A stretch of DNA of 44,890 nt from Rotaria sp. (Eukaryota). Made by a program: the position numbers and the translations under genes. The notes below the pieces were generated by a model that did not search any database, had not been told where the DNA came from, and saw nothing but the letters and a program-made list of their open reading frames with translations. How positions within the stretch are numbered: the first letter of the stretch is position 1; every line of letters begins with the position of its first letter. Shown piece after piece: positions 7,101 to 44,716 of this stretch. The stretch is taken from contig CAJNUA010000046.1 in assembly GCA_905330235.1 (NCBI GenBank), positions 386,707-431,596 of the forward strand, given 5' to 3'.

Positions 7101-9489
7101 GTTGACTTTATTTTGTGTTACTAGTTTATGAGTAGATATTCTATTTTGTTGAAAATAAAATTTTATAGGTGAAAATTAAATTTTTCTTTAATGTAACATA
7201 TGAATCGATTCGAGATTAGTCTAGGTGAATCTGAGATTGAACGCTAACATATATATGAATAGTATAACAGTTGACACTTATATTCCAAGTAAAATTTTGC
7301 TACGAAGATACAAAGTACCGATACACTTTCTGAGATTTTTAAAATACATTAATGAACAATATTTGTTAATAGGTCATTCGATGCGTTGTCGGGTACATAC
7401 TCTAATTAAGCGTATAATATATTGCATTATGTCAATGGTCAGGTGACTATCCTTATTTTAACGCTATTAAGCTAGTATAGAATATTATTTGAAAAAAAAA
7501 AGTCAAAAGTCATAACATGAACTAAGAAATGCGATCGATAAAGCATCAAATAATCTATTCACAAATATTATTCAAGAATGTATTTAAAAAATATTCAGAA
7601 AGTGTATCAGCACTTTGTATCTACATATTCAGTTTTTTCTTATATTATTAGCGTCTACTCATTTACTATTTATATATATATATGTACATAAATTTGTTCT
7701 AACTATAATATATATTTTATATCAACAATACAGTTTGAATGTATTTTGTTTTTAGTAGTACATTCAAATAAATATTGAAAAATTTTAAAAAATACTTTAA
7801 GACTGAATCATATAATAATCGTTGGTCAGAAGAAGAAAGAAATTCGAAAAAGAATGAAATCTATATCGAAACGGAATTATTTTCTCTATATTTCGATCTT
7901 TTGTGAAAATTCAATAATTCGATAACGAAATAGTTTGATAGGCCAAATTTCTCAGGCTATGTTTCCAGACGTTGACAAGTTAAATGGACATAAATTATTG
8001 AGATTTATTGCCAGGACGCTAAGATTATTAAAATATCCGCACAATAACAAGATTACGTATTTTTCAGAAAGCAATATATCGTACTAATTCGATTCTTTCG
8101 TCACTTGAATTAGTCTTAATTATGATCAATTATATTCCATAGATAAAATGTATCAATGACTATAAGAATATGTATAAAATATTGATAAATATTGGTTGCA
8201 TAATCTGACACACAATACAATACAATACAATGGAGGAACATGGTATAGCGATTAGTATTAAACTCAAATAATCGTCTGAAAATGAAACACTCTTTGAAAA
8301 ATGATCTTCGTTAAATCAAAATATTTTCCAGAGTGAGAATACTACTATATAGATACATCAAATTTGAAGTCAACAGTCACTTTTAAGGAGAGATCTTTTG
8401 TTCGATTTTCCGATCCGAATAAATCGTTTCAACATTGGTTTCATATTTAATGAATTTATTATTTCTGTAGTTACGCCAGAATATTCTCAAAATAAAAATA
8501 TTTCTGTCTAGTAGAAGATTTTCCCTAACAATATTTATTGCAAAAAAAATCATCTAACAACTGAATTCTAAAAGAACGAAAAGAATATTAGAAAAAAGGA
8601 ATAAGTTTATTTTTGGATCATCTTATATTCTGCTCATTTTACGTCTTTGCTATTCTTTTTTTTCATTCGTTATATTGCTGTTTTTTGTATTTCGCCCTAT
8701 TACCTTAGTAAAATGACATCAGTTAACCAATATCAACTGGTTTTGGATGCATATGATTCAAAAAATTTATAATCATCATTATTTATTTTCTTCTATCATT
8801 CAATTTCGAAATGAAGGTTTTTTCTTACGAAAGATTCTTGTCACTTTTCCGATTTGCAATGTATTTACATACATATATTTGATCATTTTAACGTTAATGG
8901 TGAGATAAATGAAAGAGACGCTGCAGTGATCAACGATGATGATCATTATCGGATAGAATATATAACCTTTTTTTGTAACATATTCATTCCAAAAAATTTC
9001 AGCATTTATACTACTTATAGAAATTCAGTTGATTGAAATAATGTTTTAAACAGAAAATGATAAAGAAATATTTTGAAAATAAGATATATATATATACACA
9101 TACAGATAAACTAAAGTCCTTTTTTGATAATCATGTGATTATTAAACAAAAAAATTGTTCAGTCTTATAAATGACCTTTTCAACGCATCATCTACATACA
9201 ATTTTCGATTTTTTAATGTTTTATAACAAACGCATGTCAAGAATTTTTACAACTAATAAAAAAAATAGACTACAAAAAAATCTTCTTAGAATCTTATTCA
9301 TCAGTATAGCATTTTCTTATATTAAACTAAACTTTTGATTACTTTTTAGTGATATAAGTTTTGTATTCGTTTAATTTCAAACTAAATAAAACAAAGAATC
9401 TCATTTTCCGGCTTTTATACGCTCGACAGAACGTTCATATGACAAGTTTGTCAAGCAAGATATAAATTGAAATATCGTCAACTTGTCAT

Positions 9490-9507
9490 GGTGTGTGTGT
9501 GTGTGTT
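9490..9507. repeat. (GT)n microsatellite
   Basis: gtgtgtgtgtgtgtgtg. Confidence 0.8.
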
Positions 9508-10192
9508 ATTCTTTGTATACGAATAATACAAATCATTGAAAAAAGATGCCGATTGGCTTCTTGCATGTCCCTTGATATATATCATTTTGTTTCATTTATT
9601 TTGTGATTGAAGTTTATTATCATAGTTTGAAGGATTCTTCTGAAATAGTTCAATTTCAAATCAATAGTGTTATATAAGAAATAAATGAATTGTTTTACTA
9701 TCAATAAATGTTTTTTTTGTCATTTCAACAGACATGACGAAGGCCAATAATTCGAGTTTCGATTACAATATTGTCTTGTCTAATCATCTATTGTTATAAT
9801 ATCCTTCTTTAATATTGTTTTAGTATTTAGACAATCGTCGAATACATTTTTTTCCTTCATTTCGTCTATCCTTATGAAATCATTTATCTCGATATCCCTG
9901 AATTATACTTGCAAGCGTTACTATCGTTGTCCTTCTGATGTCTCCAGTCATATCAGCTTTTTCTTTCTGTTCATTAATATCAAATCAAAAAGAAAAAATG
10001 ACGCAATATAGACAGAGAAAGAAGAAAAAATGAGCGAGTCCAACCCACCGTTCAGGTAAATGAAGTAGAGGCGTGCCATTGATCACGACTCATAGTACTA
10101 CCCACCATCTTTCTTCATCAATGCGCCTGTTCACCATCATTCAATGGTGAAAGAAAGCCATTAGACTATTAACCGATTCTGTTCGCTCATTC

Positions 10193-10290
10193 AAAAAAAA
10201 AAAAAGAAAAAGAAAGAGGACGAAACAGGGAGGAGAGAAGAGAGAGAGAGCGAAGAGAATGACGGCGAGAAGAAAGAGAGAAGAAAAAAC
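10193..10290. repeat. Polypurine (A/G) tract, poly-A then (GA)n/(GAA)n, ~480 bp upstream of the TGF-beta ATG
   Basis: aaaaaaaaaaaaagaaaaagaaagaggacgaaacagggaggagagaagagagagagagcgaagagaatgacggcgagaagaaagagagaagaaaaaa. Confidence 0.7.
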
Positions 10291-10770
10291 TGCATTCTTC
10301 ATTTATTTATTCATTCATTCATTGATCGTCTTGCCGGTATAATGAACAAGCACGGAAGTAGGTATTCAACAAGAGAATAATTTGTTTTCGATCAATTTTT
10401 AAATTGTTCGTTTTGATCAGGTTTCCATTTTACAAATAAAAAGAAAATTTTCTTCATGATTAAAGACATACATTTAAATAGTAGACATAAGAAACTTTCA
10501 ACCTTGTAAGTTGATAAGTATGGATTGATCTTTTTGAAAAGTAGAGAAGCTTATGAGTAAGTATTGTCATCAAACTGTGATGATCCTTAGCTTAAAATAC
10601 AACTTTCTCATAATGAAAATAAAATTTTTTCTTCTTTTTTTTAATTTCCTTTCGATTAAATCAAATGCATTAGCAAATATTATAGACGTGCTATTTTATT
10701 TTGAACCAAATATTTTCTTTTAACACATTGACTGTTTTGATTTTTAGATGTAATTAAAAGATATTAAAAT

Positions 10771-11044
10771 ATGATCATGTTAACAATTCAGTATTTGATT
10801 ATTTTAATTTGTTTTCAAGTTTGTCATTTATTTGTTCTCCTTGATATTCCATCAAAATCAAATGTATTAAAATATAATGGTGATAAAAAAACATCATCAT
10901 TTCATTTTAAAAATTCATATTATACAATAAGTAATTCAAGTTCATCATCTTTAATTGATTATATGAGAACATTATATGAACAAGAAAAACAAAATGATAT
11001 AAAATCTGATTATAATCTTATACGAGCTCTTGCACCACGTATCG
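10771..11044 (+). CDS. TGF-beta ligand exon 1 (signal peptide + start of prodomain)
   Basis: True ATG at 10771; donor atc g|gtaaga at 11045; phase 1 completed by tt at 12128 (gtt = V). Confidence 0.7.
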
Positions 11045-13140
11045 GTAAGATGATTTTATGAGTTAAATGTGTGTCATATTGGATTAGAATTAAAACAGAA
11101 AAAAAAATGTTGAGTGCTTTTAGACACCCCTATGAGTATGATAATAAATCGATAGATATATATACTTCGTGAAATAAACCAGACGACGAGACACGTTAGT
11201 TTTCGTCATCAGTTCAAAGTAACATGCAATCTATAACAATACATTCAATCATTGAAACTAATTGGTTATAGGAAGCATTGCATTGTTATTAAAAGATTCT
11301 AAATGAATGATTCTTTTTTCTTTGGTTTAGTTATGTCAATCATACACACTTTTTCTTTTTAGAGTTAATTGTCATTTGACGTAATGAATAGGCGGATCAT
11401 TTCTTTTCCGTAGTACATAATGATCAATTGTTGTCTGCTCGTTGACCTATAGTCGCATAATCTTTCTTCTTTTTTCTCGTCATTTCCCATTGAACTATTA
11501 AACAACAAAAACAGATACTCCTGTTTTGTTTAGTTGAAGTAATCTATGTTATAGTAATATAGATAAACAATTATGTATTCCATACAAGTAAATGACCACA
11601 CTCATCTAAGTCAAGTATCATCTTAAGTATGGTCATTGAAGAAAAAAGAAAGAATAACATATTGGACTTTTTTATCAATTGAAACTTGCTTACCGAATAA
11701 AAAAAATGATCAAAGGCACTTCATCTTGATTTATTTTATATTTGATCAATTGTTTGATATAATATGAGCAATCAACTATATGTGCGTCCTTCGTTAAAGA
11801 TCATCTTAGCGATTAATTTTTATTAAAGCTGAATATGATCTTATCACATCTTCTTTATCAAACTCCAGTTCATTGTGACATCTGTCACAAAAAATTTTGC
11901 AAATCTGACATAGTTAATCGATAAATGACTATCTCTTTTATAAGTCTATAGAGAAAAAACATTTTATTTAGATTAAAAAAAATGAAAAGAAAAGAAAAGA
12001 AAAGAAAACCATCATCTGATCGCTTTTCTCACACTATTAATGAATATTTAGTTTTTTGTTAATTGATAAGAAAACTCATCAATAATAAATCAAAGAGTAT
12101 ATTGATAAAAGAAAAGTTTGATTTTAGTTGAAATCGATAATGTTACAATGTACGTCTTTGATTTAAATGTCATTCGTCGTACGGAGAAGATTTATGCTGT
12201 TTCATTACATTTTTATAAACGTCGAACACGTTGGCCAATATCATATTCTTTAAATGAAATTTATTCATCACATCGACTTTCTTCACTTTCTGCTCAAATA
12301 CAATTAGAGCCTGATTCCTATGGTTGGCAATCATTTCCAATAGGTGATGTTATTCAACGTCAAATTAATTATTTAACATTATCGCAAAAATCTGAATATT
12401 TTGGTATAACATTTAAACCAACAGTAACAACAAAAAATCAACGAAGAAATATAATTGAATTAGAAAAATTTAGTGTTTATACACCATTTTTAATTGTTTA
12501 TTCAAATGATTCAAAACATACAAATATTTTTGAAGAATTTATACCAAAAGATTTTGAACAAGATGTCAAATCTTATGAACAATTTGAAACAGAAGTTAAT
12601 AAAAGAAACAGGTTTTTTATTTATTTATTAACAAGAACAAAAACTTTAGAATATAGTTTTTATGTATTAATCATTTTTAGATTGCGACGTTTTATTGAAG
12701 AAAAACAATCAACATTGGATTCAAATACATTTTTATCCAATTGGAATGATTCAATTTCAATTCTTGAACCTGAAACATGTTCAGTAAAACCTTTTGTCGT
12801 TGATTTTTCTGATTTAGGCTTTACTTCATGGATGATTGAACCAAAAAATTTTATGGCTAATTTATGTTCAGGTTCATGTCAAACTAAAGTTAGTTTATTT
12901 ATTCTTGCTAGAAAAAGTGATTTTTAATATATTTTTCTTATTGCTTAGTTAATGACAAATCATGCACTTCTTCAACATTTTCTCCAACGTTTAGGTATTA
13001 GAAATGATATAAATTTACCAAAAGCTGGTTGTGTACCTGAACGTTATTCTTCTTTAACTATGTTTTATAAAAGTTCAGACTATAATTATCTTATCCGTCG
13101 TTTACCTAATATGATTGTCGAAACATGTCATTGTAGATGA
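10771..13140 (+). CDS. TGF-beta/BMP/GDF-family ligand precursor, gene span (4 coding exons: 10771-11044, 12128-12611, 12681-12888, 12949-13140; ~385 aa)
   Basis: N-terminal hydrophobic signal peptide (MIMLTIQYLIILICFQVCHLFVLL), a long prodomain, and a mature domain CSVKPFVVDFSDLGFTSWMIEPKNFMANLCSGSCQTK / LMTNHALLQHFL...AGCVPERYSSLTMFYKSSDYNYLIRRLPNMIVETCHCR* with cystine-knot spacing. Phases are consistent across the GT..AG introns (phase 1, phase 2, phase 0). Confidence 0.8.
12128..12611 (+). CDS. TGF-beta ligand exon 2 (prodomain)
   Basis: Acceptor gattttag|tt at 12127; continuous ORF; ends aac ag|gttttt. Confidence 0.7.
12681..12888 (+). CDS. TGF-beta ligand exon 3 (polybasic furin site KRNRLRR|F + first half of mature domain)
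   Basis: Preceded by a 69-nt AT-rich GT..AG intron (12612-12680) that happens to be in-frame and stop-free. Splicing it creates KRNRLRR immediately before the mature domain. Ends caa act aaa|gttagt. Confidence 0.6.
12949..13140 (+). CDS. TGF-beta ligand exon 4 (second half of mature domain, stop at 13138-13140)
   Basis: Acceptor ttgcttag at 12948; ...GCVPERYSS...ETCHCR*. Confidence 0.8.
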   Translation, partial: LMTNHALLQHFLQRLGIRNDINLPKAGCVPERYSSLTMFYKSSDYNYLIRRLPNMIVETCHCR

Positions 13141-14104
13141 GCACTTTTTTTTCTTTCTTTTTGTTGTCGCTTCTTTTTTTGTATATTTGTGTGCTAATAT
13201 AGATTCGTATTGACAAATGACAAATAAATGTGTGTGTTTAAAATGTTTTGTTTTCGAGAGACGACAAATGAAATGGTATTATAATGAAGGGTACCTCCCA
13301 CCGTCTTTGTAGACCATTTCTGCTTCTCAACAAGATTGTAATCGATCAGGCTGAAGTTTTTATCACAGATAGAACGCTTAAAATAAGCAGACACTTTCGA
13401 GGACAATAGTATCCTACCATGGAGCCACATTCTGATTCATGAGGATCTCCATCAAGTTTTGTCTGGCTGAGCTGAACAGTTTTTTGGAGATACCTAACAC
13501 TACGTTTTACTGGTAATCTTTGAACTTTTTGTAAACCTTTCTGGGTTTGTTTCATGATAAAAATACGTAAAAGTTCGGAGCTAAAATTAGAGATTTTGCT
13601 CTTTAGAAGCCTATAAATGTGATACGAAAGTCAAGATTGAAAGCGGCTGATTCTATCTCTGGATAATACTTGCAAGTATTTGAAGGAAAAATTTCAGCCT
13701 CATTGATTATATTCTTTTCGAGAACCAGAAGTAGTCAAAAATGAGGGGAGGAGTAGATACCCTTAATATTGATTCAAGTAAAAATTATACGGGATAGGGA
13801 TTGTTTGTATGTTTATTCAAAAAATGAATGGTCTATTGAAAAATTAACTTTGCCATATCAATATTCTTCATACATAAGTAAACGAATCGATTAGCGATAC
13901 ATATTTAATATATAATTGCCTTTGGGTAAATATGAAAATGAGATGAATAAGTGCATAAATATAACCGTGTGTAACTTTTTCATTATTTATTTAATAGGAA
14001 AGAAAACTTAAAATATTATGACCGAAGGACGTAAATTGATTTGATTTATTCTGATTTACAAGCAAGGAAAAAATATGTTTGTATAATCTAACAATACGAT
14101 CATG

Positions 14105-15130
14105 TTAATCCTTTAGTTCATTTTTTTCTCGTTGTGCTTCTAGTTTTTTTGTGACAATATCTACAGGATATTTTAATGCTAATCGTCGAATATCATAACT
14201 AAATTCTTCAAAAGTTTCACGCCATAAACGAGCTTCTTCTGGTGTATAATTATAAAAACCATTAGCATTCAAAATACCTTTTCCACCGGCTTTAACAATA
14301 TCATCGATGAGTTTCGGTATTTCAGTGCCATTATGAAGTGTAGGAAGTAAATCTTTCATAACAGAATGATAAGCTGGAATGCCAGTAAGATCCATCCATC
14401 GAAAGCATCCAACTAATGTCATCCAATAACCAGCATTATTACGACATGCTCGATCAACATCGTCAACAGAAGCATATCCATTTTCGACTAAATAAAAAGC
14501 TTCTCGATATAAAGCATACATGAGACGATTCGTAATAAAACCACGAATATCTTTTCGTACGAGTGTTGGTTCTTTAGCCCAGTGATGTGCAAGTTGATAT
14601 AACCATTCAGCTTTTTTTGGATCACTAGTGTCACCACAAATAACTTCTAAAAATCGTGTTGTATGAGATGGTTCAGCCCAATGTAAGCCGAGAAAACGAC
14701 TTGGTATACGAGTTTCTTGTTGAAGAAGACTAATTGGAATGGCTGATGTATTGCTTGTTATAATCGTATGGTCAGCAACAACATTTTCAATATTTTTATA
14801 TACTTGTCTTTTAATTGTGATATCCTCAAGAGTACATTCAATAACTAAGAAAGTATCCTTGAGACGAGTATAATCTTCGGTAATGGTCAGATTTTTGAAG
14901 TAAAAAGCTGGTTGTTCTAAACAAATTTCTTGTTCGAATGATCGAACAAGATGTTCATGAATACGAGCTTCAGCAGTTTCAAGATCGATTGGAAGTGATG
15001 CGATTGCTACAACTGAATGACCAGCTATTAAAAGACAAGTACTAATACTACAGCCCATAAGACCTAAACCAACCACACCGACTGTTATTTGTGCAGGAAC
15101 AATAGTTGAGATATTTTCTTTGGTATCCAT
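14105..15130 (-). CDS. 3-hydroxyacyl-CoA dehydrogenase family protein (NAD-binding Rossmann + HCDH C-terminal domain), intronless, 341 aa
   Basis: Single ORF from a true ATG. GxGxxG motif VGVVGLGLMGCSIS near the N-terminus, a central ...HWAEPSHTTRFLEVI... segment, and a C-terminal half typical of the 3-hydroxyacyl-CoA / 3-hydroxybutyryl-CoA / L-carnitine dehydrogenase family. Confidence 0.8.
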   Translation of the reverse strand: MDTKENISTIVPAQITVGVVGLGLMGCSISTCLLIAGHSVVAIASLPIDLETAEARIHEHLVRSFEQEICLEQPAFYFKNLTITEDYTRLKDTFLVIECTLEDITIKRQVYKNIENVVADHTIITSNTSAIPISLLQQETRIPSRFLGLHWAEPSHTTRFLEVICGDTSDPKKAEWLYQLAHHWAKEPTLVRKDIRGFITNRLMYALYREAFYLVENGYASVDDVDRACRNNAGYWMTLVGCFRWMDLTGIPAYHSVMKDLLPTLHNGTEIPKLIDDIVKAGGKGILNANGFYNYTPEEARLWRETFEEFSYDIRRLALKYPVDIVTKKLEAQREKNELKD

Positions 15131-16029: not shown

Positions 16030-16899
16030 TTAAGATCTAGGAATAGGTTCGAAGATTAATGATAGTTGTTTACCATCACGATAGAATCCACCATTTTGTA
16101 GTTCATTTTGAGGAGTATTGACTGCGTGCAGAATAGAATTAGCACCTATTTCAGGAGAACGAGCATCAGATGCATTTTGCGTCATATCAGTAGCACAATA
16201 TCCTGGAGTCACTGATATGACCAGTAGATTTTTACTAATTGACCATTCACGTGCTTCTATTTGAGTAAGTGCATTTAATGCTGCTTTAGAAATACCATAA
16301 ATTGGAGTGAATGTTTTATTATGATATCCTAAATCTTCAAGTGTGTTTGTTTCGATAGCTGCAATAAAATCTTCAACTAATTGATCAAGTTCTTTTATTG
16401 TTAATGTTGGTGATATATATTTATCTCGAAGAATAGTTGAAGATTCATACAATGCTATCGCACCTACTTGACTAGAAACATTAATAATACGTCCATTTTT
16501 TCTGATCATTGGAAATAATTGTTCATTGAGTAATTTAATGCCATAATAATGAACAGCAAATGTTTTTCGCGCTGCATCAACAGTGAGATCATTTAACAAA
16601 ATTCCAGCATTATTAATGACTATATCCAATTGTCCACCATATTTTTCTTTAATTTCATTAACCATTTGATTGATACTTTCTATTGATAACATGTCCAATT
16701 GAAGAGGATGAACATTGGACGGAGAACCGAGTTGTTCAAATGCATCTTGACCACGCTTTAAATCTCGACTACCAAGAAGAATAACAGTATTGTTCAATGA
16801 TGATTCGTTTAAAAGTTTTTTTACAACATGAAAACCAATGCCTTTATTAGCACCAGTGACAAGAATCACACGTTGTTGTTTTGTTGACAACATGTCCAA
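16030..16899 (-). CDS. Short-chain dehydrogenase/reductase, carbonyl reductase [NADPH]-like, intronless, 289 aa
   Basis: VTGANKGIGFHVVKKLL cofactor-binding motif, NNAGI, catalytic YGISKAALNAL (YxxxK), and a C-terminal TPGYCATDMT segment as in CBR1-type SDRs. True ATG at 16899. Confidence 0.8.
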   Translation of the reverse strand: MDMLSTKQQRVILVTGANKGIGFHVVKKLLNESSLNNTVILLGSRDLKRGQDAFEQLGSPSNVHPLQLDMLSIESINQMVNEIKEKYGGQLDIVINNAGILLNDLTVDAARKTFAVHYYGIKLLNEQLFPMIRKNGRIINVSSQVGAIALYESSTILRDKYISPTLTIKELDQLVEDFIAAIETNTLEDLGYHNKTFTPIYGISKAALNALTQIEAREWSISKNLLVISVTPGYCATDMTQNASDARSPEIGANSILHAVNTPQNELQNGGFYRDGKQLSLIFEPIPRS

Positions 16900-19817: not shown

Positions 19818-20000
19818 CTGCACCCGCACCCATACCCATACCTATACCAATACCCAGACCCAAACTCATTGCACACCAACACCCACACCCACACCCAAAC
19901 TCATTGCACACCTATACCAATACCCAGACCCAAACTCATTGCACACCAACACCCACACCCACACCCAAACTCATTGCACACCTAAACCCACATCCACATG
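19818..20000. repeat. CACCCA-type minisatellite containing two 60-bp higher-order copies, ~330 bp upstream of the MVP-1 ATG
   Basis: ataccaatacccagacccaaactcattgcacaccaacacccacacccacacccaaactcattgcacacct repeated twice; source of the spurious Pro/His/Thr-rich ORFs 19661..20050. Confidence 0.8.
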
Positions 20001-20518: not shown

Positions 20519-23414
20519 GTGAGTTTCCTATGCGGTAAGACGAAAAAGTAAAATATTATTTTTTATTTCTATAGCCCGCTACATTATTGTATTGTCGAAT
20601 CGCCAGTTGTACGCAACGAGGAAGGTGAAGTAGAATTCGATCAAAATGGTCAACCGAAATTGGTTCATGCTGATATTGATATTCGTCTGACACAGCCTGA
20701 TCAAACTCCGTTTCCTCTCTATCCAGGAGAAATTCTTCGCCAGGTATAATATTTTTAAAACGTTATTTGCTCGCATTAACCATTATTTATAGTCTGTCAC
20801 GGCACTTACAGTTGTCCCAGCTAATTCAGCACTGCGATTAAAAGCTGTACTCGATTTTGAGGATTTGCATAAGGAACAACGACGAGCCGGTGATGAATGG
20901 ATGTTCGAAGGCCCGGCTACCTACATTCCTCGTAAAGAAGTCAATGTCGAACAACAAATTCAAGCAACTATTATTGGTCCTAATCAAGCCATTCGGCTTT
21001 GTGCTAAAAAGGACCTTACTGATCGATCAGGTCAACATCGTGTCACTGGAGAAGAGTGGCTACTCAAGAAGACTGGTGCCTATTTGCCATTAGCCTATGT
21101 AATTTCTCTAGTATTTGTTTTCGTCGTTACCTGTTCATGTCAATCTTATAGGAAACGGTTGTATCAGTTCAAAATGCCTATGCTTTAACTGAGAAAAAAG
21201 CTCTTCATCTTCGAGCCCTTAAAACTTTCATTGACGATTTTGGTGAACAACGTTTGAATGGAGAAGAATGGCTTGTGACGCATGTTGATACGGAAACCCA
21301 CATTCTCAGTATATACGAAGAACTTGTTGCTGTTGTCGATGCAATCACACTCAACTCACGACAGTACTGTGTCATTCTCAATCCAGTTACCGATGGCAAA
21401 CCACAACTCGGACGAAAGGTCGGTATTTTGTCAAAAGATAAATATAAAAAAATATCGTATAGTTATTTTATTTAGAAATTGGTCGTTGGCGAAATATCAT
21501 TCTTTCTCCAACCAGGCGAAAAACTTTTAAAAGGCATTCAAAACGTTTTCATTTTAGGTGAAGACGAAGGTGTTATTGTCAAATGTAATGAAACATTTGA
21601 GGATGCACAAACAAAGAAAGTACGTATTCCGGGTGAACGATGGATGATTCGAGGGCCAACGTAGGTTACTTTTTCTCTCATTACAGAACATTTTGAATAT
21701 ATAGCTATTGTTTTTGAACTCTTAGTGAATATATTCCACCTACTCAAGTCGAAGTTGTCACTCGACGACAAGCAATTCCATTAGATGAAAATGAAGGCGT
21801 CTATGTTCGCAATATTAAAAGTGGCCGTGTTCGAACAGTAGTTGGTGAAACTTACATGTTAACACATGATGAAGAACTTTGGAACAAAGAATTACCCGAA
21901 CAAATCGAATACTTACTAACCCGTGATCCATTGACTGAACGCTATTCTGCCATGCGTGGAACGGTCTCGGTCAACAGTGGATTGACAACTATTGCCTTAA
22001 ATAGTCAATCGAACAGTTCGACATCACTTACTATCAAACGCGCTAAATGGAAATTGATTACATATCGTGTTCCATATAATGCGGCTGTCCAAATCTATGA
22101 TTACAAATTGAAGAAAGCTCGTATTGTTTTCGGTCCGGAACTTGTCATGCTTGAGCCTGATGAACATTTTACTCTGATTTCTTTAAGTGGTGGTATACCC
22201 AAAAAACCTAATCAAGTTAACTCGCTTTGTTTACTACTCGGTCCGAATTTCTTCACTGATAGCATTGACATTGAGACGGCTGATCATGCTCGTCTCTCCC
22301 TTCAACTTGCTTACAGTAAGTTAAAAACACAGAAAAAACATTTAAAAATGTACATCATTGATTATTCTTTATTTGGCAGACTGGCACTTTGAGGTGAAAG
22401 ACATAAATGATACAAAAGAAGCGGCTAAACTCTTTTCAGTACCTGATTTTGTCGGAGATATATGCAAAGCCATAGCTTCACGTATTCGTGGTGCTGTAGC
22501 TAGCACTCAGTTTGATAATTTTCATAAAAATTCCGCTCACATCATTCGTGAGTCTGTGTTTGGTCTTGATGCGAATCAGTGTGTACGCGATCAAATTATC
22601 TTTCCACAAAATAACCTTGTCATTACATCGATCGACATTCAAAATGTTGAGCCTGTCGATATACGTACGCGTGATGCACTACACAAGAGTGTGCAACTGG
22701 CCATTGAAGTATGAACTTAAATTGTTTGCCTTTTCTGCAATGTTAACAACAATTTCTACTTTAGATAACGACGAATTCGCAAGAAGCCGCTGCTAAACAT
22801 GAAGCTTCACGTCGTGAACAAGAAGCTAGAGGTTCCTTAGAACGACAGCGTATCAAAAATGAAGCTGAAGCCGAAAAGATCCGACAAATACTACTCGAAT
22901 CACAAGCCCTATCAGCGGCGATCGAATTAACTGGTCAAACCAAAGCAGAAGCTTTGAGTCGTGCTGAATCGAAGCGTATTGAAGGCGAAACAGCCGTTCA
23001 TCAAGGTATTTACTTTGCTACATTTATATAATGAAAACTTATTCTTTTTCTCGATCCATTGCAGCACGTCGCAAAGCTGAGGCGACCAAAATCGACGATG
23101 AAGCCGAATTGGCCCATTTGAGATTGATACGCGAAGGTGAAATTAGGTTTTTACGCGAACAAAACGAACTAGAAATTAAGAAAAAAGCCGAATTGTCTCG
23201 AATCGAGACTGAAAAATTTAAATTGCAAGTCGAATCAATCGGTACTTCAACTATTCAAAGTATTGCTACATCGGGTCCTGAGACTCAAGTTAAACTTTTG
23301 CAAGCACTCGGAATACAATCGATGCTTGTTACTGATGGCAAAAGTCCAATCAATCTCATGGACTTCGGTCAAGGTCTACTCGGTGGTCTAACAGACCGTC
23401 ATGTAATTAACTAA
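20325..23414 (+). CDS. MVP: Major vault protein paralog 1, gene span (9 coding exons, ~876 aa)
   Basis: Translation aligns end to end with MVP: [14 protein letters not shown]..., the repeat domains, [33 protein letters not shown], the coiled-coil cap helix, and the C-terminal [20 protein letters not shown]. All splice phases are consistent. Confidence 0.9.
20575..20743 (+). CDS. MVP: MVP-1 exon 2
   Basis: Acceptor atag; [56 protein letters not shown]; donor gtataa. Confidence 0.85.
20793..21098 (+). CDS. MVP: MVP-1 exon 3
   Basis: [50 protein letters not shown]...TGAYLPLAY; donor gtaatt. Confidence 0.85.
21152..21418 (+). CDS. MVP: MVP-1 exon 4
   Basis: [26 protein letters not shown]...[18 protein letters not shown]; donor gtcggt. 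Confidence 0.8.
21476..21660 (+). CDS. MVP: MVP-1 exon 5
   Basis: [32 protein letters not shown]...RWMIRGPT; donor gtaggt; phase 2. Confidence 0.85.
21726..22315 (+). CDS. MVP: MVP-1 exon 6
   Basis: [11 protein letters not shown]...[28 protein letters not shown]...[14 protein letters not shown]; donor gtaagt; phase 1. Confidence 0.85.
22380..22708 (+). CDS. MVP: MVP-1 exon 7
   Basis: [41 protein letters not shown]...SVQLAIE; donor gtatga. Confidence 0.9.
22765..23005 (+). CDS. MVP: MVP-1 exon 8
   Basis: [38 protein letters not shown]...ETAVHQ; phase 1. Confidence 0.85.
23065..23414 (+). CDS. MVP: MVP-1 exon 9 (stop at 23412-23414)
   Basis: [26 protein letters not shown]...[47 protein letters not shown]. 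Confidence 0.9.
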
Positions 23415-25787: not shown

Positions 25788-28700
25788 CTAAAGAGATTAT
25801 TAGACAAACGATTGAGCAACATAAATATGAGGAATATATCTACTTGATTGTCAGGTCCACTAGTGGCAATAGCTTGAATTGTTTGAGATCCTATAGCAGC
25901 CACATGCTCCTTGAATTCTTCGATTTCAATATTAGTAATTCGTTTCGTTTTTTCAATTTCAAGTTCAGATGTTAATTTATCATGTGCCAATTCGAGTTCA
26001 CGTGTTTGCATCAAGCGATCGAGTTCAGTATCAGATTTAATCTTCCCTGCTTCAGCTCGAAGAGTAGCTATTAGAAAAGATCTCGGTCTTCGACTAAAGA
26101 TTTACAAAAACCAATTTCGAACATACCTTGTTCGACAGCTGCGTCTCCCTCGATTATCGCTGCTTCTGCACGCGACTTAGCTTCAGCATGCGATTGGCCA
26201 ACCAATTCTACAGCTGCCGAACGTGCTTGAAGCACCAACAGCTCCTGACGTTCCTTTTCGGCTAGAAAAATTAAGATTACATATATAGTCTATAGAATAA
26301 TATAGGTTAATGGGTAAAGCTCGAAATCAAATGGTAGACGTGGAGTCATGATATTGGAAATTGATGGTCTACAAAGTGTGACAATCTCAGATACAATTTA
26401 CGTCGAATGATTGATATTATTTTATTAGAGTGCGGAAGAATTATGTAAGCTTTATAGATAGGTTCTGAAAGCGACCATATTGATACTTTTAGATGAACAG
26501 AATAAAAATGAAATTTTGTCTTATCTTTTCAAGTTAACATGTAAACAAAGTCGAAACACTATGCTAATCTCTAATACATATACACAAGAGTGCAAAACAA
26601 TAATAATCGTCTACCTTCAGCTTCATCGGTGATCCTTTGTCGTTCCAGATAACCTTTGGCTTCTTGTTGAATTCGTGAAGCCATATGCCTATTAAAAAAA
26701 AACATGAAAATAGTCGTTTTTTTTCTATCTCATCATTTCTTTTACTTGGCTTGAGCTTCTTGTGAGTTAGTCGTTATCTAAAGTAGAATTTTGACAAAGT
26801 CAGATAAATATTTATCGAAAGAGAATTTAATTACTTCAATAGCTAGTTGAACGCTCTTCTGAAGAGCATCTTGTGTTCTTTGATCGACCGGTTTAACGCT
26901 TTGAATATCGATTGAAGTGAGAACAAGATTATTTTGTGTGAAGACAAGTCGATTATTAATTCGCTTGTTTTCATCAATACCAAAAACGGACGTACGGATA
27001 ATTTTGGCCGAATTTTTATGAAAATCGTCAAATGAAATACCAGCAACAGCACCACGAATTTTTGCTGCGACAGTCTTGCAAAAGTCTCCAACAAAATCAG
27101 GTACTGAAAAGAGTTTAGCTACATCTTTGCTATCATTCTTATCGGCAACCTAGAAATAGAAGGCACACTCTTTCTGTTGCTGATTAAAAAATACGATTTC
27201 TCACTTCGAAATACCAACTATAGGACAACTGGAGTGAGAGTCGAGCATGGTCACTCGATTCAATGGTTACGACATCAGTTGAAAACTCCGGTCCAAGCAA
27301 AAGGCACATAGCACGGATTCTGTTTGGAACCTTCGGCTTATCACCGGATAGGTTAAGAATTGTAAATTGCTCATCAGGACCAAGCATAACAAGTTCAGGC
27401 CCGAAAATGATACGAGCGTTTTTAGATTTATAATCATAAATTTGTACACATGCATTATGTGGTACACGATAAGTGATTACTTTTGATTTGTCTCGAGGTG
27501 GAAGCACAGCGATTACTGCTGATTGGTTTTTAAAGTGGCGAACATCAAGTGCAAGTAATTGTTCGACTTCAGTTGGTAATTCTTTTTCCCAGAGTTCTTC
27601 ATTTTCGGTAAGTAGATAGGTACTACCGATAATTGAACGAATTTTGCCCATCTTGACATTACGTACATATATACCTTCGTTTACATCCAATGGAATAGAT
27701 TTTCGTCGATTTACAACCTCAACTTCGATAGCCGGAATATAATCTCTAGGACCTCGAATCATCCAAAGATCACCTGGATTGTGTATTACATTCTCAAAAG
27801 TTAAGAAATAATTTTCAAAGAAAATAAAAAAATTCTACTAACTTTCTCTTCGCTAAATGCTTCGATACATCGAAGAATAAGACCTTCGTCTTCTTCAAGT
27901 ACATACACATCCTGAATACCGTTGGCAAACTTCTCACCTGGCTGCAGAAAAAAGATCGCTTCACCCTAGTCGAAAACGCCCTCATTAGTGGAATAACATT
28001 AATAATAGTAACAGCCATACTTTAACAAGTTTTTTCTTTCCTAGCTGAGGTTTACCGTTTGAGCCGACTGGATCAATAATGATACAATATTGGAGAGAAT
28101 GAAGTACGGTAACCGGAACAATATCAACCACCTATTAATTATTTTTTAAGTGTTTTAAGTGATAGTAGACAAAGAAGAAGAAAAAACCTCTTCATAAACA
28201 TCGGGTATATATGTTTCAGCATCGTTAGCATATACCAACCATTCTTCACCATGAAGACGTTTACGTTTGAATATATCAACAAATGTTCGTAAAGCACGAA
28301 TGTGAAGAGCTTTCTAAACATGCAGTTATAATGAATAACAACAAATAGTATTTATTTCGTTGGCTCATACTTTGTCGGTTAACACGTAGGCCTTGACAAT
28401 CGAAACAACTTCTTCGTAAGCCGATGGTAAATAAGAACCAACCATTTGAATGAGCCATTCTTCACCTGCTTCACGCTCAATACCGTTTCTGTCAATCATT
28501 TTCTTTTTAGCACGCAGACGAATCGCTTCATTCGGTTTCAAAATATTAGCTTGAATTTCCCTATCAACATGAACTTCTTTGCGTGGGAAATAGGTTCCTA
28601 AAAAAATGAATATGAAAATCAATAACGAAATCTTATTGAGTCTGTTTTATATGTCAGCGTTGCAGTAGTGCATCATTTTCAATTTCTGAACTAACAGTAT

Positions 28701-38880: not shown

Positions 38881-38985
38881 TGGGTTGGATTGGGTTGGGT
38901 TTGGTTGGAATGGGTTGGGTTGGATTCGGTTGGGTTGGGTTGGGTTGGGTTGGGTTGGGCCGGAATAGGTTGGGTTCGGTTGGGA
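38881..38985. repeat. (TTGGG)n-like pentanucleotide array (tgggt/tggat/ttggt units)
   Basis: tgggttgggttgggttgggttgggttgggc... Confidence 0.8.
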
Positions 38986-39259
38986 AATTCATTTTCGCTT
39001 ACAAGTAATTATAGATAATATGTACATTTATTGAGGTTGCCATAGGGCAAACTTAAGTTCGGAATTCAATTTTAGCTGACACCCATAAATTGCCTGCCAG
39101 CTTCTGCAAGTAGTTGCTGCCTGACATTTGGTCATCCAAGACGCTACCAACAGCTATTAATCAAAATCTAGACGCACCGAGCACAACGCCCCCATGCAAA
39201 CTGGAACCCATCATCGCACTCAGATCCACAAGCCATATCACACCAACACCGTCAACTTC

Positions 39260-39525
39260 ACCCACACACAAATCCCACACATACACCGACACACAAATCC
39301 CACACATACACCCACACACAAATCCCACACATACACCCACACACAAAGCCCACACATACACCCACACACAAATCCCACACATACACCCACACACCGGCCC
39401 ATACATCAACACCCACATACCGACCCATACATCAACACCCACACACCGACCCATACATCAACACCCACATACCGACCCATACATCAACACCCACACACCG
39501 ACCCATACATCAACACCCACACCCT
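39260..39525. repeat. Two adjacent minisatellites: 24-bp unit cacacaaatcccacacatacaccc (x4) followed by a ~28-bp unit acaccgacccatacatcaacacccacat (x4)
   Basis: Read directly; generates the spurious His/Thr/Pro-rich ORFs 39114..39694. Confidence 0.8.
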
Positions 39526-42075: not shown

Positions 42076-42132
42076 GTAAGTAATATTACTTTTCTCAGTT
42101 TACACATGCACTTCTGGTTCCGTTGTTTTTAG

Positions 42133-44586: not shown

Positions 44587-44716
44587 GGTGTGGGTGTGGG
44601 TGTGGATAAATAGAAGAGCAGCACACACCCACACCCACACCACACACCCCACACCCACACCCACACCCACACCCACACCCACACCCACACCCACACCCAC
44701 ACCCACACCCACACCC
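44587..44716. repeat. Palindromic (GGGTGT)3 - 17 bp - (CACACC)~18 block
   Basis: gggtgtgggtgtgggtgtgg ataaatagaagagcagca cacacccacacccacacc...; the left part is the reverse complement of the right repeat unit. Confidence 0.8.

What the first reader, a model, noticed from the sequence alone, without database searches (positions are those of the whole stretch)
10771..13140. Divergent TGF-beta-family ligand lacking the inter-chain cysteine, whose furin site exists only if a 69-nt in-frame AT-rich intron is removed
The mature domain (CSVKPFVVDFSDLGFTSWMIEPKNFMANLCSGSCQTK LMTNHALLQHF ... AGCVPERYSS ... ETCHCR*) has the cystine-knot spacing but only six cysteines. The position that is normally CC is GC, so the intermolecular disulfide cysteine is absent, as in GDF9 / BMP15 / Lefty-type ligands that signal as non-covalent dimers. 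C-x-G-x-C is followed by QTK rather than the usual P-F.

The 69-nt segment 12612-12680 (GT...AG, 80% AT) is in-frame and stop-free. It can therefore be read through, giving a hydrophobic insert FFIYLLTRTKTLEYSFYVLIIF, or spliced, giving a clean polybasic processing site EVNKRNRLRR|FIEEKQ directly ahead of the mature domain. A single splice choice would then decide whether the precursor can be furin-cleaved, which makes this a candidate intron-retention switch.

A long polypurine (GA)n/(GAA)n tract lies ~480 bp upstream of the ATG.
Basis: partly seen in the sequence, partly recalled or inferred. Interest (0 to 1): 0.6.

Follow-up and report, generated by a model that had tools for sequence, protein, structure and literature searches.

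The report
Cysteine-less BMP3-like ligand, ordinary intron
This is a real, already-annotated growth-factor gene of a bdelloid rotifer, a BMP3-like TGF-beta ligand that has lost the cysteine normally linking its two chains, but the proposed intron switch is not supported: the cleavage motif is encoded whether or not the intron is removed, and the intron is in frame in this species only by accident.

Summary
The window comes from Rotaria sp. Silwood2. The spliced 385-aa product is identical to a GenBank "unnamed protein product".

**Confirmed**
- The gene has four exons (10771-13140, + strand) and a Pfam TGF_beta domain (E=1e-23).
- It has six knot cysteines, with Gly (GGT, 13027-13029) at the inter-chain cysteine position.
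- The loss is real. The position is Gly or Ser in all Rotaria and Adineta orthologues, dN/dS is 0.03-0.4, and deeper bdelloids and Brachionus keep CC.
- The closest relatives are BMP3/GDF10, not GDF9/BMP15.

**Not confirmed**
- The claim that the furin site exists only after splicing is wrong. The intron is phase 2, and both exon 2 and the intron end in AG. The AGA codon is therefore rebuilt, and RLRR|F is present in both the spliced and the retained forms.
- The 69-nt intron is typical for bdelloids (median 55-67 nt).
- Its in-frame, stop-free state is not conserved: 70 nt in Silwood1, 85 in R. sordida, 74 in R. magnacalcarata, 56 and 61 in Adineta. Some lineages lack the intron.
- It evolves like neutral intron sequence.
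- Transcript contigs from two other bdelloid lineages have it spliced out.
- Chance expectation for an in-frame, stop-free intron is about 3-4%.

**Side observation:** non-coding blocks upstream of the gene and in intron 1 are strikingly conserved.

The parts
9900..10600 (.). Conserved non-coding block upstream of the ATG. It probably holds the promoter and 5' UTR, and includes a TATAAT-like element at 10338-10343 inside a ~130-nt stretch that is nearly invariant.
   Evidence: In a five-species alignment, 10300-10399 is 95% invariant and 10100-10199 is 90% invariant. Mismatches show no 3-nt periodicity. The block is also conserved in ten bdelloid lineages.
10186..10295 (+).
   Evidence: The tract is 85% purine. 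Its sequence and length vary, but a purine-rich tract is present at the same place in all ten orthologous loci, flanked by invariant blocks.
10771..11044 (+). Exon 1: start codon, hydrophobic signal-peptide-like N-terminus (aa 1-25), and the start of the prodomain. Orthologues are annotated from the second in-frame ATG at 10777.
   Evidence: Translation. The highest Kyte-Doolittle 15-residue windows start at aa 9-10 (mean 2.73). The exon1-exon2 junction APRI|VEIDN is seen in cDNA-like contigs of P0005 and P0007.
11045..12127 (+). Intron 1: phase 1, 1083 nt, GTAAGA...TTTTAG. Its first ~650-750 nt are a conserved non-coding element.
   Evidence: A long first intron is also present in the Silwood1, R. 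magnacalcarata, R. sordida, A. steineri and A. vaga loci, as aligned or inferred from their gene spans. In L002 the gap between the exon-1 and exon-2 matches is about 900 nt. No Rfam match was significant; the best was mir-7360 at E=0.76.
12128..12611 (+). Exon 2: the most conserved part of the prodomain, including the invariant HFYKRRTRWP (RRTR codons at 12220-12231).
   Evidence: Alignment A1. dN/dS is 0.10-0.32 against five orthologues.
12612..12680 (+). Intron 2: phase 2, 69 nt, GTTTTT...TTTTAG, 86% A+T. It is in frame and stop-free in this species only among the annotated genomes.
12610..12690 (+). Proprotein-convertase motif R253-L-R-R256. The first Arg codon is split AG|A across intron 2; the remaining codons are 12682-12690. 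Cleavage would release a 129-aa C-terminal fragment beginning at F257 (12691).
   Evidence: R253 and R256 are invariant in 13 bdelloid homologues. The motif is present in both the spliced and the retained translations.
12681..12888 (+). Exon 3: cleavage site, N-terminal arm of the mature peptide, knot cysteines C286, C315 and C319 (CSGSC), and finger 1.
12889..12948 (+). Intron 3: phase 0, 60 nt, GTTAGT...GCTTAG, with an in-frame stop. It sits where the pre-helix loop is 5 residues shorter than in Didymodactylos and BMP3.
   Evidence: The junction CQTK|LMTNHA type is confirmed by cDNA-like contigs of two other lineages.
12949..13140 (+). Exon 4: wrist helix (TNHALLQ), finger 2, cysteines C350, C382 and C384, and the stop codon.
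   Evidence: dN/dS is 0.03-0.40.
13027..13029 (+). GGT (Gly349) at the position of the inter-chain cysteine. The next codon, TGT (13030-13032), is knot cysteine C350.
   Evidence: Codon survey: GGT or GGA in Rotaria and Adineta, TCG in the P0005 lineage, TGT in the P0007 lineage. CC is found in Didymodactylos and Brachionus.

Best explanation
**What is shown**
- 10771-13140 is a conventional four-exon gene of the bdelloid rotifer Rotaria sp. Silwood2.
- It encodes a secreted TGF-beta-family pre-pro-protein of the BMP branch, most similar to BMP3/GDF10.

**How it most likely works (inferred from family knowledge)**
1. A signal peptide directs secretion.
2. All three introns are removed constitutively.
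3. A furin-type convertase cuts after R253-L-R-R256 and releases a 129-aa C-terminal domain.
4. That domain folds as a cystine-knot monomer with three intramolecular disulfides. By homology to BMP2/BMP3 these are C286-C350, C315-C382 and C319-C384.
5. The fourth cysteine of the canonical seven is Gly, so the ligand must associate as a non-covalent dimer, as GDF9 and BMP15 do. It cannot form a disulfide-linked dimer.

**Further points**
- The wrist region, which binds the type I receptor, carries two other clade-specific changes: a pre-helix loop shortened by 5 residues and Phe for the first conserved Trp. This suggests altered or weak type I receptor engagement. That would fit a BMP3-like role in which the ligand sequesters the type II receptor and modulates signalling, but this was not tested.
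- Intron 2 is an ordinary short bdelloid intron. Its 3n, stop-free state in this species is a neutral accident of indels in A/T runs.
- If the intron were retained, the RLRR motif would still be there.
For: **Identity**
- The spliced protein is an exact match to NCBI CAF2497398.1 and related entries from Rotaria sp. Silwood2.

**Family**
- Pfam TGF_beta E=1.2e-23.
- The AlphaFold model has pLDDT 94.8, and its best PDB fold match is BMP-3 2qcq (E=5e-11, TM 0.84).

**Subfamily**
- BMP3 is the best solved-structure sequence hit: 79.6 bits against 61.7 for BMP2. With the bdelloid profile the scores are 96.1 against 79.8.
- An exhaustive profile search puts BMP3 (Merluccius), BMP3/GDF10 (Branchiostoma) and 'bone morphogenetic 3' (Brachionus plicatilis) among the best-scoring named non-bdelloid proteins.
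- In a neighbour-joining tree, bdelloids group with Brachionus BMP3 in 125 of 150 bootstraps and with GDF9/BMP15 in only 4 of 150.
- In the full tree the BMP3-type clade of 63 tips contains the bdelloids. Every tip that is not Cys at this position is a bdelloid.

**The cysteine loss is real and the gene is functional**
- Codon survey; two Silwood2 assemblies; dN/dS 0.03-0.4.

**Cleavage site**
- R253 and R256 are invariant. RLRR is present in both isoforms.

**The intron is ordinary**
- Orthologue lengths are 70, 85, 74, 56, 61, 56, 50, 63, 87 and 62 nt. Most shift the frame or contain stops, and five to six lineages have no intron at all.
- Intron identity to Adineta is 55-57%, against 78-91% for exons.
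- Chance of a stop-free frame is 9-13%.
- The bdelloid median intron is 55-67 nt (PMC5916493).
- Spliced transcript contigs were found for two lineages. One of them has an orthologous 87-nt intron that is also in frame and open.

**Non-covalent behaviour of cysteine-less ligands**
- PMC6953019.
Against: - No RNA data for Rotaria sp. Silwood2 were available, so constitutive splicing in this species is inferred from relatives.
- The donor GTTTTT is a poor match to the metazoan GTRAGT consensus (my own knowledge), and weak donors favour retention.
- The exclusive grouping with human BMP3 has weak bootstrap support (45 of 150).
- ADMP, Lefty and GDF3 references were not included in the tree.
- Five of ten orthologous introns are stop-free in the entering frame, against 1.6 expected (nominal P=0.007). 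I attribute this to small numbers, shared ancestry and ascertainment, but cannot prove it.
- Dimerisation mode, receptor binding and convertase cleavage are inferred, not tested.
Confidence: 0.8

Rival explanations
1. One reading: intron 2 is a regulated retention switch. Splicing creates the furin site, and retention yields a precursor that cannot be cleaved.
For: - In this species the intron is 3n, stop-free and has a weak-looking donor.
- A retained transcript would escape nonsense-mediated decay.
- The 69-nt sequence is identical in two Silwood2 assemblies.
Against: - RLRR|F is encoded in the retained form too, so the premise fails.
- The nearest relatives have 70-, 85- and 74-nt versions that shift the frame or stop.
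- The intron is absent in several lineages.
- There is no peptide conservation, and the intron diverges at a neutral-like rate.
- Transcript contigs in two other lineages are spliced.
- No retained-form ORF is on record.
Confidence: 0.03
2. A weaker version: selection keeps this intron open in the entering frame in many bdelloids. Occasional retention would then be tolerated, or would produce a variant prodomain C-terminus that tunes convertase efficiency.
For: - Five of ten introns with DNA in hand are stop-free in the entering frame, against 1.6 expected (P=0.007 nominal).
- Several metagenome lineages (P0010, P0011, P0012, P0014, P0018) are 3n and open.
Against: - Among eight annotated genomes only Silwood2 is both 3n and open.
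- The metagenome proteins were found as long prokaryote-style ORFs, which biases the sample toward open introns.
- L012, a close relative of P0010, differs by one nucleotide and shifts the frame.
- The test was post hoc and the lineages are partly non-independent.
- The inserted peptides are unrelated apart from their composition.
Confidence: 0.06
3. The missing cysteine is an artefact or marks a decaying pseudogene.
For: None beyond the a priori rarity of cysteine loss. The GGT codon is one substitution away from TGT.
Against: - The same Gly codon is found in independent assemblies of at least six species, and Ser in two more.
- Third-position-biased substitutions and dN/dS of 0.03-0.4 hold in both the prodomain and the mature domain.
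- The reading frame and splice sites are intact.
- The cysteine-less sequences form one clade (127 of 150 bootstraps).
Confidence: 0.01
4. The gene is not a BMP3/GDF10 orthologue. It would instead be a rotifer-specific, fast-evolving BMP-branch ligand (for example derived from ADMP, Nodal or BMP2/4) whose resemblance to BMP3 is convergent or a long-branch effect.
For: - The exclusive clade with human BMP3 has only 45 of 150 bootstraps.
- Identity to BMP3 is 37-45%, against 32-38% for BMP2 and Nodal.
- The prodomain does not reach Pfam TGFb_propeptide at E no more than 1 and, at 256 aa, is shorter than I recall for vertebrate BMP3 (own knowledge).
- ADMP was not in the labelled reference set.
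Against: - BMP3 wins by 15-18 bits in two independent sequence searches and in the fold search.
- The best-scoring named proteins in the exhaustive search are BMP3/GDF10, including the monogonont rotifer protein annotated as BMP3.
- There are shared motifs: CSGxCQ, CVPEK/RxSSL and PNMxVExCxCR (alignment).
- bmp3 is a standard spiralian ligand (PMC13121700).
Confidence: 0.2

Closest known systems
BMP3 / GDF10 (vertebrate BMP-3, PDB 2qcq; amphioxus and spiralian bmp3)
   Same: - BMP3 is the best sequence and fold match.
- Spacing is the same from C1 to C2 and from C5 to C6.
- Shared motifs are CSGxCQ, CVPE[KR]xSSL and PNMxVExCxCR.
- It has an RXXR-type cleavage site and the C-terminal CxCR.
   Different: - The inter-chain cysteine is replaced by Gly.
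- The pre-helix loop is 5 residues shorter.
- The first conserved Trp of GW..W is Phe.
- The precursor is 385 aa with a 256-aa pre-pro region, shorter than I recall for vertebrate BMP3 (own knowledge).
- Phylogenetic support for orthology is weak.
Brachionus plicatilis 'bone morphogenetic 3' (RNA19336.1, P0059)
   Same: - It is the sister group of the bdelloid clade in the neighbour-joining tree (125 of 150 bootstraps).
- It shares the rotifer-specific features ...F.SWIIEPK... (Phe for the first Trp) and LPDM/NMxV.EC.CR.
   Different: - It keeps the CC pair.
- It has a longer pre-helix loop and a longer precursor (518 aa).
GDF9 / BMP15 (and, from my own knowledge, GDF3 and Lefty1/2): ligands without the inter-chain cysteine
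   Same: - They have six-cysteine mature domains with a small residue at the C4 position. Human GDF9 and BMP15, as recalled from memory, have Ser there.
- They are expected to form non-covalent dimers that can exchange subunits outside the cell (PMC6953019).
   Different: - They are not orthologous. Identity is 26-33% and they group together in only 4 of 150 bootstraps.
- The loss here occurred independently inside bdelloid rotifers, after the split from the P0007 lineage and from Didymodactylos, which keep CC.
In-frame, stop-free retained introns ('exitron'-like, or 3n introns that escape NMD)
   Same: The intron is 3n and stop-free with a weak-looking donor, so a retained transcript would be translatable.
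   Different: - The property is not conserved even among congeners.
- There is no coding-type constraint.
- No retention has been observed.
- The functional motif it was supposed to gate is unaffected.

Membership tests
TGF-beta superfamily ligand | C-terminal domain of about 100-110 aa matching the TGF_beta profile, ending in CxCx | tested here: met
   PF00019 E=1.2e-23 at 84.2 bits (cut-off 27), covering aa 286-384 and profile positions 2-104 of 104. The protein ends in CHCR.
TGF-beta superfamily ligand | Six knot cysteines with canonical spacing (C1, CxGxC, C5, CxC) | tested here: met
   Cysteines are at 286, 315, 319, 350, 382 and 384. They align column for column with BMP3 and BMP2. C36, G38, C71, C103 and C105 are invariant in 86 sequences.
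TGF-beta superfamily ligand | Cystine-knot growth-factor fold (two fingers plus a wrist helix) | tested here: met
   AlphaFold2 with an 86-sequence alignment gave pLDDT 94.8. All top Foldseek PDB hits are BMP, GDF or activin at TM 0.7-0.84. An earlier model from 8 sequences was unusable (pLDDT 38.6).
TGF-beta superfamily ligand | Signal peptide, prodomain and a dibasic or RXXR convertase site ahead of the mature domain | tested here: met
   The N-terminus is hydrophobic (KD15 2.73). RLRR at 253-256 is invariant R..R in 13 homologues. Cleavage itself cannot be tested here. Pfam TGFb_propeptide was not detected in this protein; it is weak in the Didymodactylos homologues.
TGF-beta superfamily ligand | Seventh cysteine (C4) forming the inter-chain disulfide | tested here: not met
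   Gly349 (GGT, 13027-13029). This feature is not obligatory for membership, because GDF9 and BMP15 also lack it (PMC6953019).
BMP3/GDF10 subfamily | Closest similarity to BMP3/GDF10 among all family members | tested here: met
   BMP3 is the top PDB sequence hit by 15-18 bits and the top fold hit. The best-scoring named non-bdelloid proteins in the exhaustive search are BMP3/GDF10. Identity is highest to BMP3 for every bdelloid sequence.
BMP3/GDF10 subfamily | Monophyly with bona fide BMP3/GDF10 in a supported phylogeny | tested here: inconclusive
   The full neighbour-joining tree places the bdelloids in a 63-tip BMP3-type clade. Bootstrap support for the exclusive clade with human BMP3 is only 45 of 150, against 125 of 150 with Brachionus BMP3. 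No maximum-likelihood tree was made and there were no ADMP references.
BMP3/GDF10 subfamily | Binding of the type II receptor (ActRIIB) without productive type I receptor signalling (antagonist behaviour; own knowledge of vertebrate BMP3) | not testable with these tools
   This needs binding and reporter assays. The only hint from sequence is the altered wrist loop.
GDF9/BMP15-type ligands | Absence of the inter-chain cysteine | tested here: met
   Gly at the C4 position.
GDF9/BMP15-type ligands | Orthology or phylogenetic affinity to GDF9/BMP15 | tested here: not met
   Identity is 26-33%.
Regulated in-frame intron retention (exitron-like switch) | 3n length and absence of in-frame stops | tested here: met
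   The intron is 69 nt with no stop in the phase-2 frame. This holds for this species only.
Regulated in-frame intron retention (exitron-like switch) | Conservation of the frame and of the encoded peptide in related species | tested here: not met
   Orthologous introns are 70, 85, 74, 56, 61 and 62 nt, with stops or frameshifts, in seven other annotated genomes. Several lineages have no intron. The peptides are unrelated, and identity to Adineta is 55-57%.
Regulated in-frame intron retention (exitron-like switch) | Retention changes a functional element (here, presence of the furin site) | tested here: not met
   RLRR is present in both the 385-aa and the 408-aa products.
Regulated in-frame intron retention (exitron-like switch) | Retained transcripts observed | tested here: inconclusive
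   No exact retained ORF is on record. Transcript contigs from two other lineages are spliced. No RNA data were available for Silwood2.

The most novel reading that the evidence does not exclude
Intron 2 would be kept translatable (open and often 3n) in a subset of bdelloid lineages more often than chance allows. Its occasional retention would yield a precursor with a variable hydrophobic and basic insert directly upstream of the unchanged RLRR site, tuning convertase access or prodomain release of a disulfide-free BMP3-type ligand.
Probability: 0.05. Interest if true: 0.5.

Novelty: new member of a known kind. Interest (0 to 1): 0.22.

Why it matters
- The gene itself is ordinary and already deposited as an unnamed product. 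The proposed splice switch does not hold up.
- What remains is modest but real. A BMP3-type ligand lost its inter-chain disulfide within bdelloid rotifers. In my sample of 63 BMP3-type sequences this is the only such loss. It came together with a truncated wrist loop.
- This gives a natural, independently evolved counterpart to GDF9/BMP15 for asking what covalent linkage contributes to BMP-family signalling.
- It is also a marker for dating changes in BMP signalling in an asexual, developmentally little-studied phylum. I found no paper on rotifer TGF-beta ligands.
- The conserved non-coding blocks around exon 1 may be of more practical value. They are candidate cis-regulatory elements that have been preserved across bdelloid families.

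Tried and rejected
1. **Profile search with the mature domain in the word-indexed protein database.** It returned only 62-aa rotifer exon-4 fragments and gave no subfamily information. I replaced it with the exhaustive representative search and looked up names afterwards.
2. **First AlphaFold run on an 8-sequence alignment.** pLDDT was 38.6 and the model was unusable. I repeated it with 86 sequences.
3. **Exact look-up of the read-through ORF 12148-12924.** It is not on record, so this gives no evidence for or against retention.
4. **Rfam scan of 9300-13700.** Nothing was significant. The mir-7360 hit in intron 1 has E=0.76 and I dismiss it.
5. **Metagenome scan for more loci.** It returned only 9 loci, too few for an unbiased census of the intron.
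6. **Literature search for rotifer TGF-beta or BMP3.** Nothing relevant was found.
7. **The 3n and open introns in metagenome-derived proteins as possible evidence of selection.** I rejected this as decisive because those proteins were ascertained as long uninterrupted ORFs, and because a sister contig (L012) differs by one nucleotide and shifts the frame.
8. **P0017's extra SVTSEDEPAA as a possible read-through intron.** I rejected this because its composition is not intron-like. It is more likely a longer coding linker with no intron.
9. **The Schistosoma bovis (P0052) and myostatin-like (P0051) proteins that scored high.** They carry activin/GDF8-type CC..C N-termini and did not group with the bdelloids, so I did not pursue them.


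Full report
**1. What is in the sequence**

Reading and translating 10000-13600 gives a clean four-exon gene on the + strand.

| Feature | Coordinates | Notes |
|---|---|---|
| Exon 1 | 10771-11044 | |
| Intron 1 | 11045-12127 | 1083 nt, phase 1 |
| Exon 2 | 12128-12611 | |
| Intron 2 | 12612-12680 | 69 nt, phase 2, GTTTTT...TTTTAG, 86% A+T |
| Exon 3 | 12681-12888 | |
| Intron 3 | 12889-12948 | 60 nt, phase 0, contains a stop |
| Exon 4 | 12949-13140 | |

- The spliced product is 385 aa. It is an exact match to GenBank proteins CAF2497398.1 and related entries, 'unnamed protein product [Rotaria sp. Silwood2]'. The window is therefore bdelloid rotifer DNA, and this gene model is already in the public annotation.
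- Pfam finds TGF_beta at aa 286-384 (E=1.2e-23).
- The C-terminal region has exactly six cysteines (286, 315, 319, 350, 382, 384). It reads KAGCVPE where the family normally has CC.
- The polypurine tract at 10186-10295 is 85% purine.
- All the descriptive parts of the finding are therefore correct.

**2. The furin claim is wrong**

- Intron 2 is phase 2. Exon 2 ends ...AAC AG and exon 3 begins A TTG CGA CGT, so the spliced codon is AG|A = Arg. This gives KRNRLRR|FIEE.
- The intron itself ends ...TTTTTAG. In the unspliced reading the last two intron bases plus the same A again make AGA, giving ...VLIIFRLRR|FIEE.
- The minimal proprotein-convertase motif R-X-[K/R]-R (established knowledge) is therefore RLRR in both products.
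- Retention would only move the additional upstream basic residues (KRNR) 23 residues away.
- R253 and R256 are invariant in 13 bdelloid homologues.

**3. Is the intron special?**

It is not special by size. Bdelloid median intron length is 55-67 nt, with most introns between 30 and 100 nt (PMC5916493).

It is not special by chance either. Of shuffles of this intron, 9-13% are stop-free in frame. Multiplying by 1/3 for 3n length gives roughly 3-4% of such introns.

It is not special by conservation. I recovered orthologous loci from seven other annotated bdelloid genomes and from metagenome or Logan contigs and mapped the intron in each.

| Lineage | Intron 2 | State |
|---|---|---|
| Silwood2 (window) | 69 nt | In frame, stop-free. 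Identical in a second assembly that is 99.7% identical overall |
| Silwood1 (95% protein identity) | 70 nt | Frameshift and stops |
| R. sordida | 85 nt | Frameshift |
| R. magnacalcarata | 74 nt | Stop |
| A. steineri | 56 nt | Frameshift |
| A. vaga | 61 nt | Stops |
| A. ricciae | not measured | Frameshift, inferred from P0019 |
| D. carnosus | 62 nt | Stop; lies a few codons further 3' in a longer linker |
| Metagenome L012 | 56 nt | Frameshift |
| Metagenome L015 | 50 nt | Stop |
| Metagenome L009/L011 | 63 nt | In frame, open |
| L002 | 87 nt | In frame, open |
| L008, L010, P0013, P0015, P0016 | none | No intron at this position |

- Identity of intron 2 to the Adineta orthologues is 55-57%. 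That is similar to intron 3 (47-53%), and far below the flanking exons at 78-91%.
- The read-through peptides of different lineages share only F/L/I/K/Y-rich composition.
- For the lineage with the 87-nt in-frame open intron, a 1273-nt Logan contig (L001) carries the uninterrupted 395-aa ORF with all three introns removed. It aligns exon by exon to the genomic contig L002.
- Four cDNA-like contigs of another lineage (P0005) are likewise fully spliced.
- The exact read-through ORF of the window is not on record anywhere.
- There are no RNA data for Silwood2 itself, so splicing in this species is inferred.

One residual oddity remains. Five of the ten introns with DNA in hand are stop-free in the entering frame, against 1.6 expected (nominal P=0.007), and several metagenome-derived proteins imply 3n open introns. 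I rate this as weak, for four reasons:
- The test is post hoc.
- The metagenome proteins were ascertained as long uninterrupted ORFs.
- A sister contig of one of them differs by a single nucleotide and shifts the frame.
- Among eight annotated genomes only the window species is both 3n and open.

**4. The missing cysteine is real, and where it arose**

| Lineage | Codon or residue at the C4 position |
|---|---|
| Both Silwood2 assemblies, Silwood1, R. sordida (two divergent copies), R. magnacalcarata, A. steineri, metagenome loci L008 and L015 | GGT (Gly) |
| A. vaga | GGA (Gly) |
| A. ricciae | Ser |
| P0005 lineage | TCG (Ser) |
| P0007 lineage | TGT (Cys retained) |
| Didymodactylos carnosus, P0024, monogonont Brachionus plicatilis | CC pair retained |

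- The cysteine-less sequences form one clade (127 of 150 bootstraps).
- Substitutions are concentrated at third codon positions, and dN/dS is 0.03-0.40 for the prodomain and mature exons. The gene is therefore under purifying selection after the loss.
- Two further changes are shared by the cysteine-less clade and by the P0007 lineage, which keeps CC. The pre-helix loop after CxGxC is five residues shorter (CQTK-LMTNHA against CEFQHIRSSKSTNHA in Didymodactylos and CQFPMPKSLKPSNHA in BMP3). The first conserved Trp of the GW..W motif is Phe.
- The shortening sits on both exon edges of intron 3, and the short form is confirmed by the cDNA-like contigs.

**5. Which ligand is it?**

- Against all PDB sequences the best match is BMP-3 (2qcq) at 79.6 bits, against 61.7 for BMP-2. 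With a profile of eight bdelloid mature domains the scores are 96.1 against 79.8.
- An exhaustive HMM search of 1.8 billion representatives, followed by name look-up, puts these among the best-scoring named non-bdelloid proteins: BMP3 (Merluccius), BMP3-like/GDF10 (Branchiostoma), 'bone morphogenetic 3' (Brachionus plicatilis), a Ciona TGF-beta ligand and a Capitella protein with BMP3 motifs.
- An AlphaFold2 model built with 86 sequences has pLDDT 94.8. Its top Foldseek PDB hit is again BMP-3 (TM 0.84, 38% identity).
- In a neighbour-joining tree of 164 mature domains the bdelloids are monophyletic and sister to Brachionus BMP3. They sit inside a 63-tip clade whose members are BMP3-like by nearest reference. 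In that clade the only non-Cys residues at C4 are the seven bdelloid sequences.

Bootstrap support on an 84-taxon subset:

| Grouping | Bootstraps (of 150) |
|---|---|
| Bdelloid monophyly | 139 |
| Bdelloids plus Brachionus BMP3, excluding all human references | 125 |
| Exclusive clade with human BMP3 | 45 |
| With GDF9/BMP15 | 4 |

BMP2 and BMP3 agree with the alignments printed.
- I therefore call the protein BMP3-like with moderate confidence, and exclude GDF9/BMP15 affinity with good confidence.
- bmp3 is one of the four standard spiralian BMP ligands (PMC13121700).

**6. How it most likely works**

Shown:
- The gene structure, the domain and fold, the conserved RxRR site, the six-cysteine pattern, the purifying selection and the BMP3-like similarity.

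Inferred from established family knowledge:
- Secretion through the N-terminal hydrophobic signal.
- Convertase cleavage after RLRR, releasing a 129-aa mature domain.
- Three intramolecular knot disulfides. By homology these are C286-C350, C315-C382 and C319-C384.
- Association as a non-covalent dimer, because the cysteine that forms the only inter-chain bond is absent. GDF9 and BMP15 do the same, and can therefore exchange subunits outside the cell (PMC6953019).

Speculative:
- The wrist changes reduce type I receptor engagement. The ligand would then act, like vertebrate BMP3 (my own knowledge), mainly by occupying type II receptors.

**7. Context and things seen in passing**

- A convergent, intronless 3-hydroxyacyl-CoA dehydrogenase gene (14108-15130, minus strand) follows the ligand gene. 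It is syntenic in all Rotaria and Adineta loci examined.
- Two non-coding blocks are conserved as well as, or better than, the exons across Rotaria, Adineta and deeper lineages. They are 9900-10600 upstream of the ATG and 11045-11700 in intron 1. They show no codon periodicity, whereas introns 2 and 3 and the 3' intergenic DNA are not conserved.
- Stretch 10300-10399 is 95% invariant in five species and contains a TATAAT-like element.
- The polypurine tract lies between two invariant blocks. It varies in sequence but is purine-rich in all ten loci.
- These blocks look like a conserved promoter or 5' UTR plus intronic enhancer elements. Rfam finds nothing there.

**8. Verdict**

Its headline mechanism rests on a misreading: the furin motif survives retention.
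- Comparative data show an ordinary, fast-evolving and sometimes absent intron.
- The cysteine-less ligand is genuine. It is best described as a derived BMP3-type ligand of Rotaria and Adineta, a new member of the known class of disulfide-free TGF-beta ligands.
- Interest is low to modest.

Noticed in passing
window 9900-10600 and 11045-11700: These non-coding blocks are conserved as strongly as, or more strongly than, the coding exons across Rotaria, Adineta and deeper bdelloid lineages. 10300-10399 is 95% invariant in five species and 10100-10199 is 90% invariant. There is no 3-nt periodicity, while introns 2 and 3 and the 3' intergenic DNA are unconserved. They are candidate cis-regulatory elements or a conserved 5' UTR of a developmental ligand gene. 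Inverted TTGATCG/CGATCAA motifs lie at 10321-10327 and 10389-10395.
   Followed up: partly
window 10186-10295: The polypurine tract varies in sequence and length between species. It is nevertheless present as a purine-rich tract at the same position in all ten orthologous loci, sandwiched between invariant blocks and about 45 nt upstream of a conserved TATAAT-like element (10338-10343). This suggests a compositional (GAGA-type) promoter element.
   Followed up: partly
window 11045-12127: Intron 1 is about 1 kb. A long first intron is also present in the other orthologous loci examined (about 0.9 kb in L002), although the typical bdelloid intron is 55-67 nt. Only its last ~300 nt are unconserved, and these include an (AAAAG)n repeat at 11975-12008.
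   Followed up: partly
window 12220-12231 (aa 123-126, within invariant HFYKRRTRWP): The exon-2 part of the prodomain is unusually conserved for a TGF-beta prodomain (88-96% nucleotide identity to the four orthologues compared). It contains a second RXXR motif (RRTR) that is nearly invariant in bdelloids. This could be a second convertase site or a structural element.
   Followed up: no
window 12880-12960 (edges of intron 3); L025 2960-3020: The pre-helix (wrist) loop is 5 residues shorter than in Didymodactylos and BMP3. The missing residues map to both exon edges flanking the phase-0 intron 3 (CQTK|LMTNHA against CEFQHIR|SSKSTNHA). This is compatible with splice-site sliding or small deletions. 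The first conserved Trp of GW..W is Phe in Brachionus and in most bdelloid homologues, but not in Didymodactylos or P0024.
   Followed up: partly
L008, L010 (and proteins P0013, P0015, P0016): Intron 2 is absent in several bdelloid lineages that keep introns 1 and 3, so there is presence/absence variation of this intron within the class. Five of ten orthologous introns are stop-free in the entering frame against 1.6 expected (nominal P=0.007). This is unexplained and is probably due to ascertainment and small numbers.
   Followed up: partly
window 14108-15130 (-) and 16033-16899 (-): An intronless 3-hydroxyacyl-CoA dehydrogenase gene (341 aa) lies convergent to the ligand gene and is syntenic in all Rotaria and Adineta loci examined. 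Next to it is an intronless short-chain dehydrogenase ORF (289 aa).
   Followed up: partly
window 21856-22389 (+) and 27187-27762 (-): Two major vault protein gene fragments (Vault_3, Vault_4 and MVP_shoulder domains) lie in opposite orientation about 5 kb apart. This may be an inverted duplication.
   Followed up: no
window 42123-42812 (+): An ORF with a DDE_Tnp_4 / DDE_Tnp_1 transposase domain (PIF/Harbinger-like), probably a transposable element.
   Followed up: no
window 19828-19998, 38881-38984, 39259-39522, 44624-44716: There are C/A-rich tandem repeats (units such as ACCCAC..., a 25-26-nt CACCCACACAC... unit, and CACACC) and a (TGGGT)n array. They coincide with strong GC-skew excursions in the composition profile (-0.22 at 19-20 kb and -0.43 at 39-40 kb). 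Their nature was not examined.
   Followed up: no
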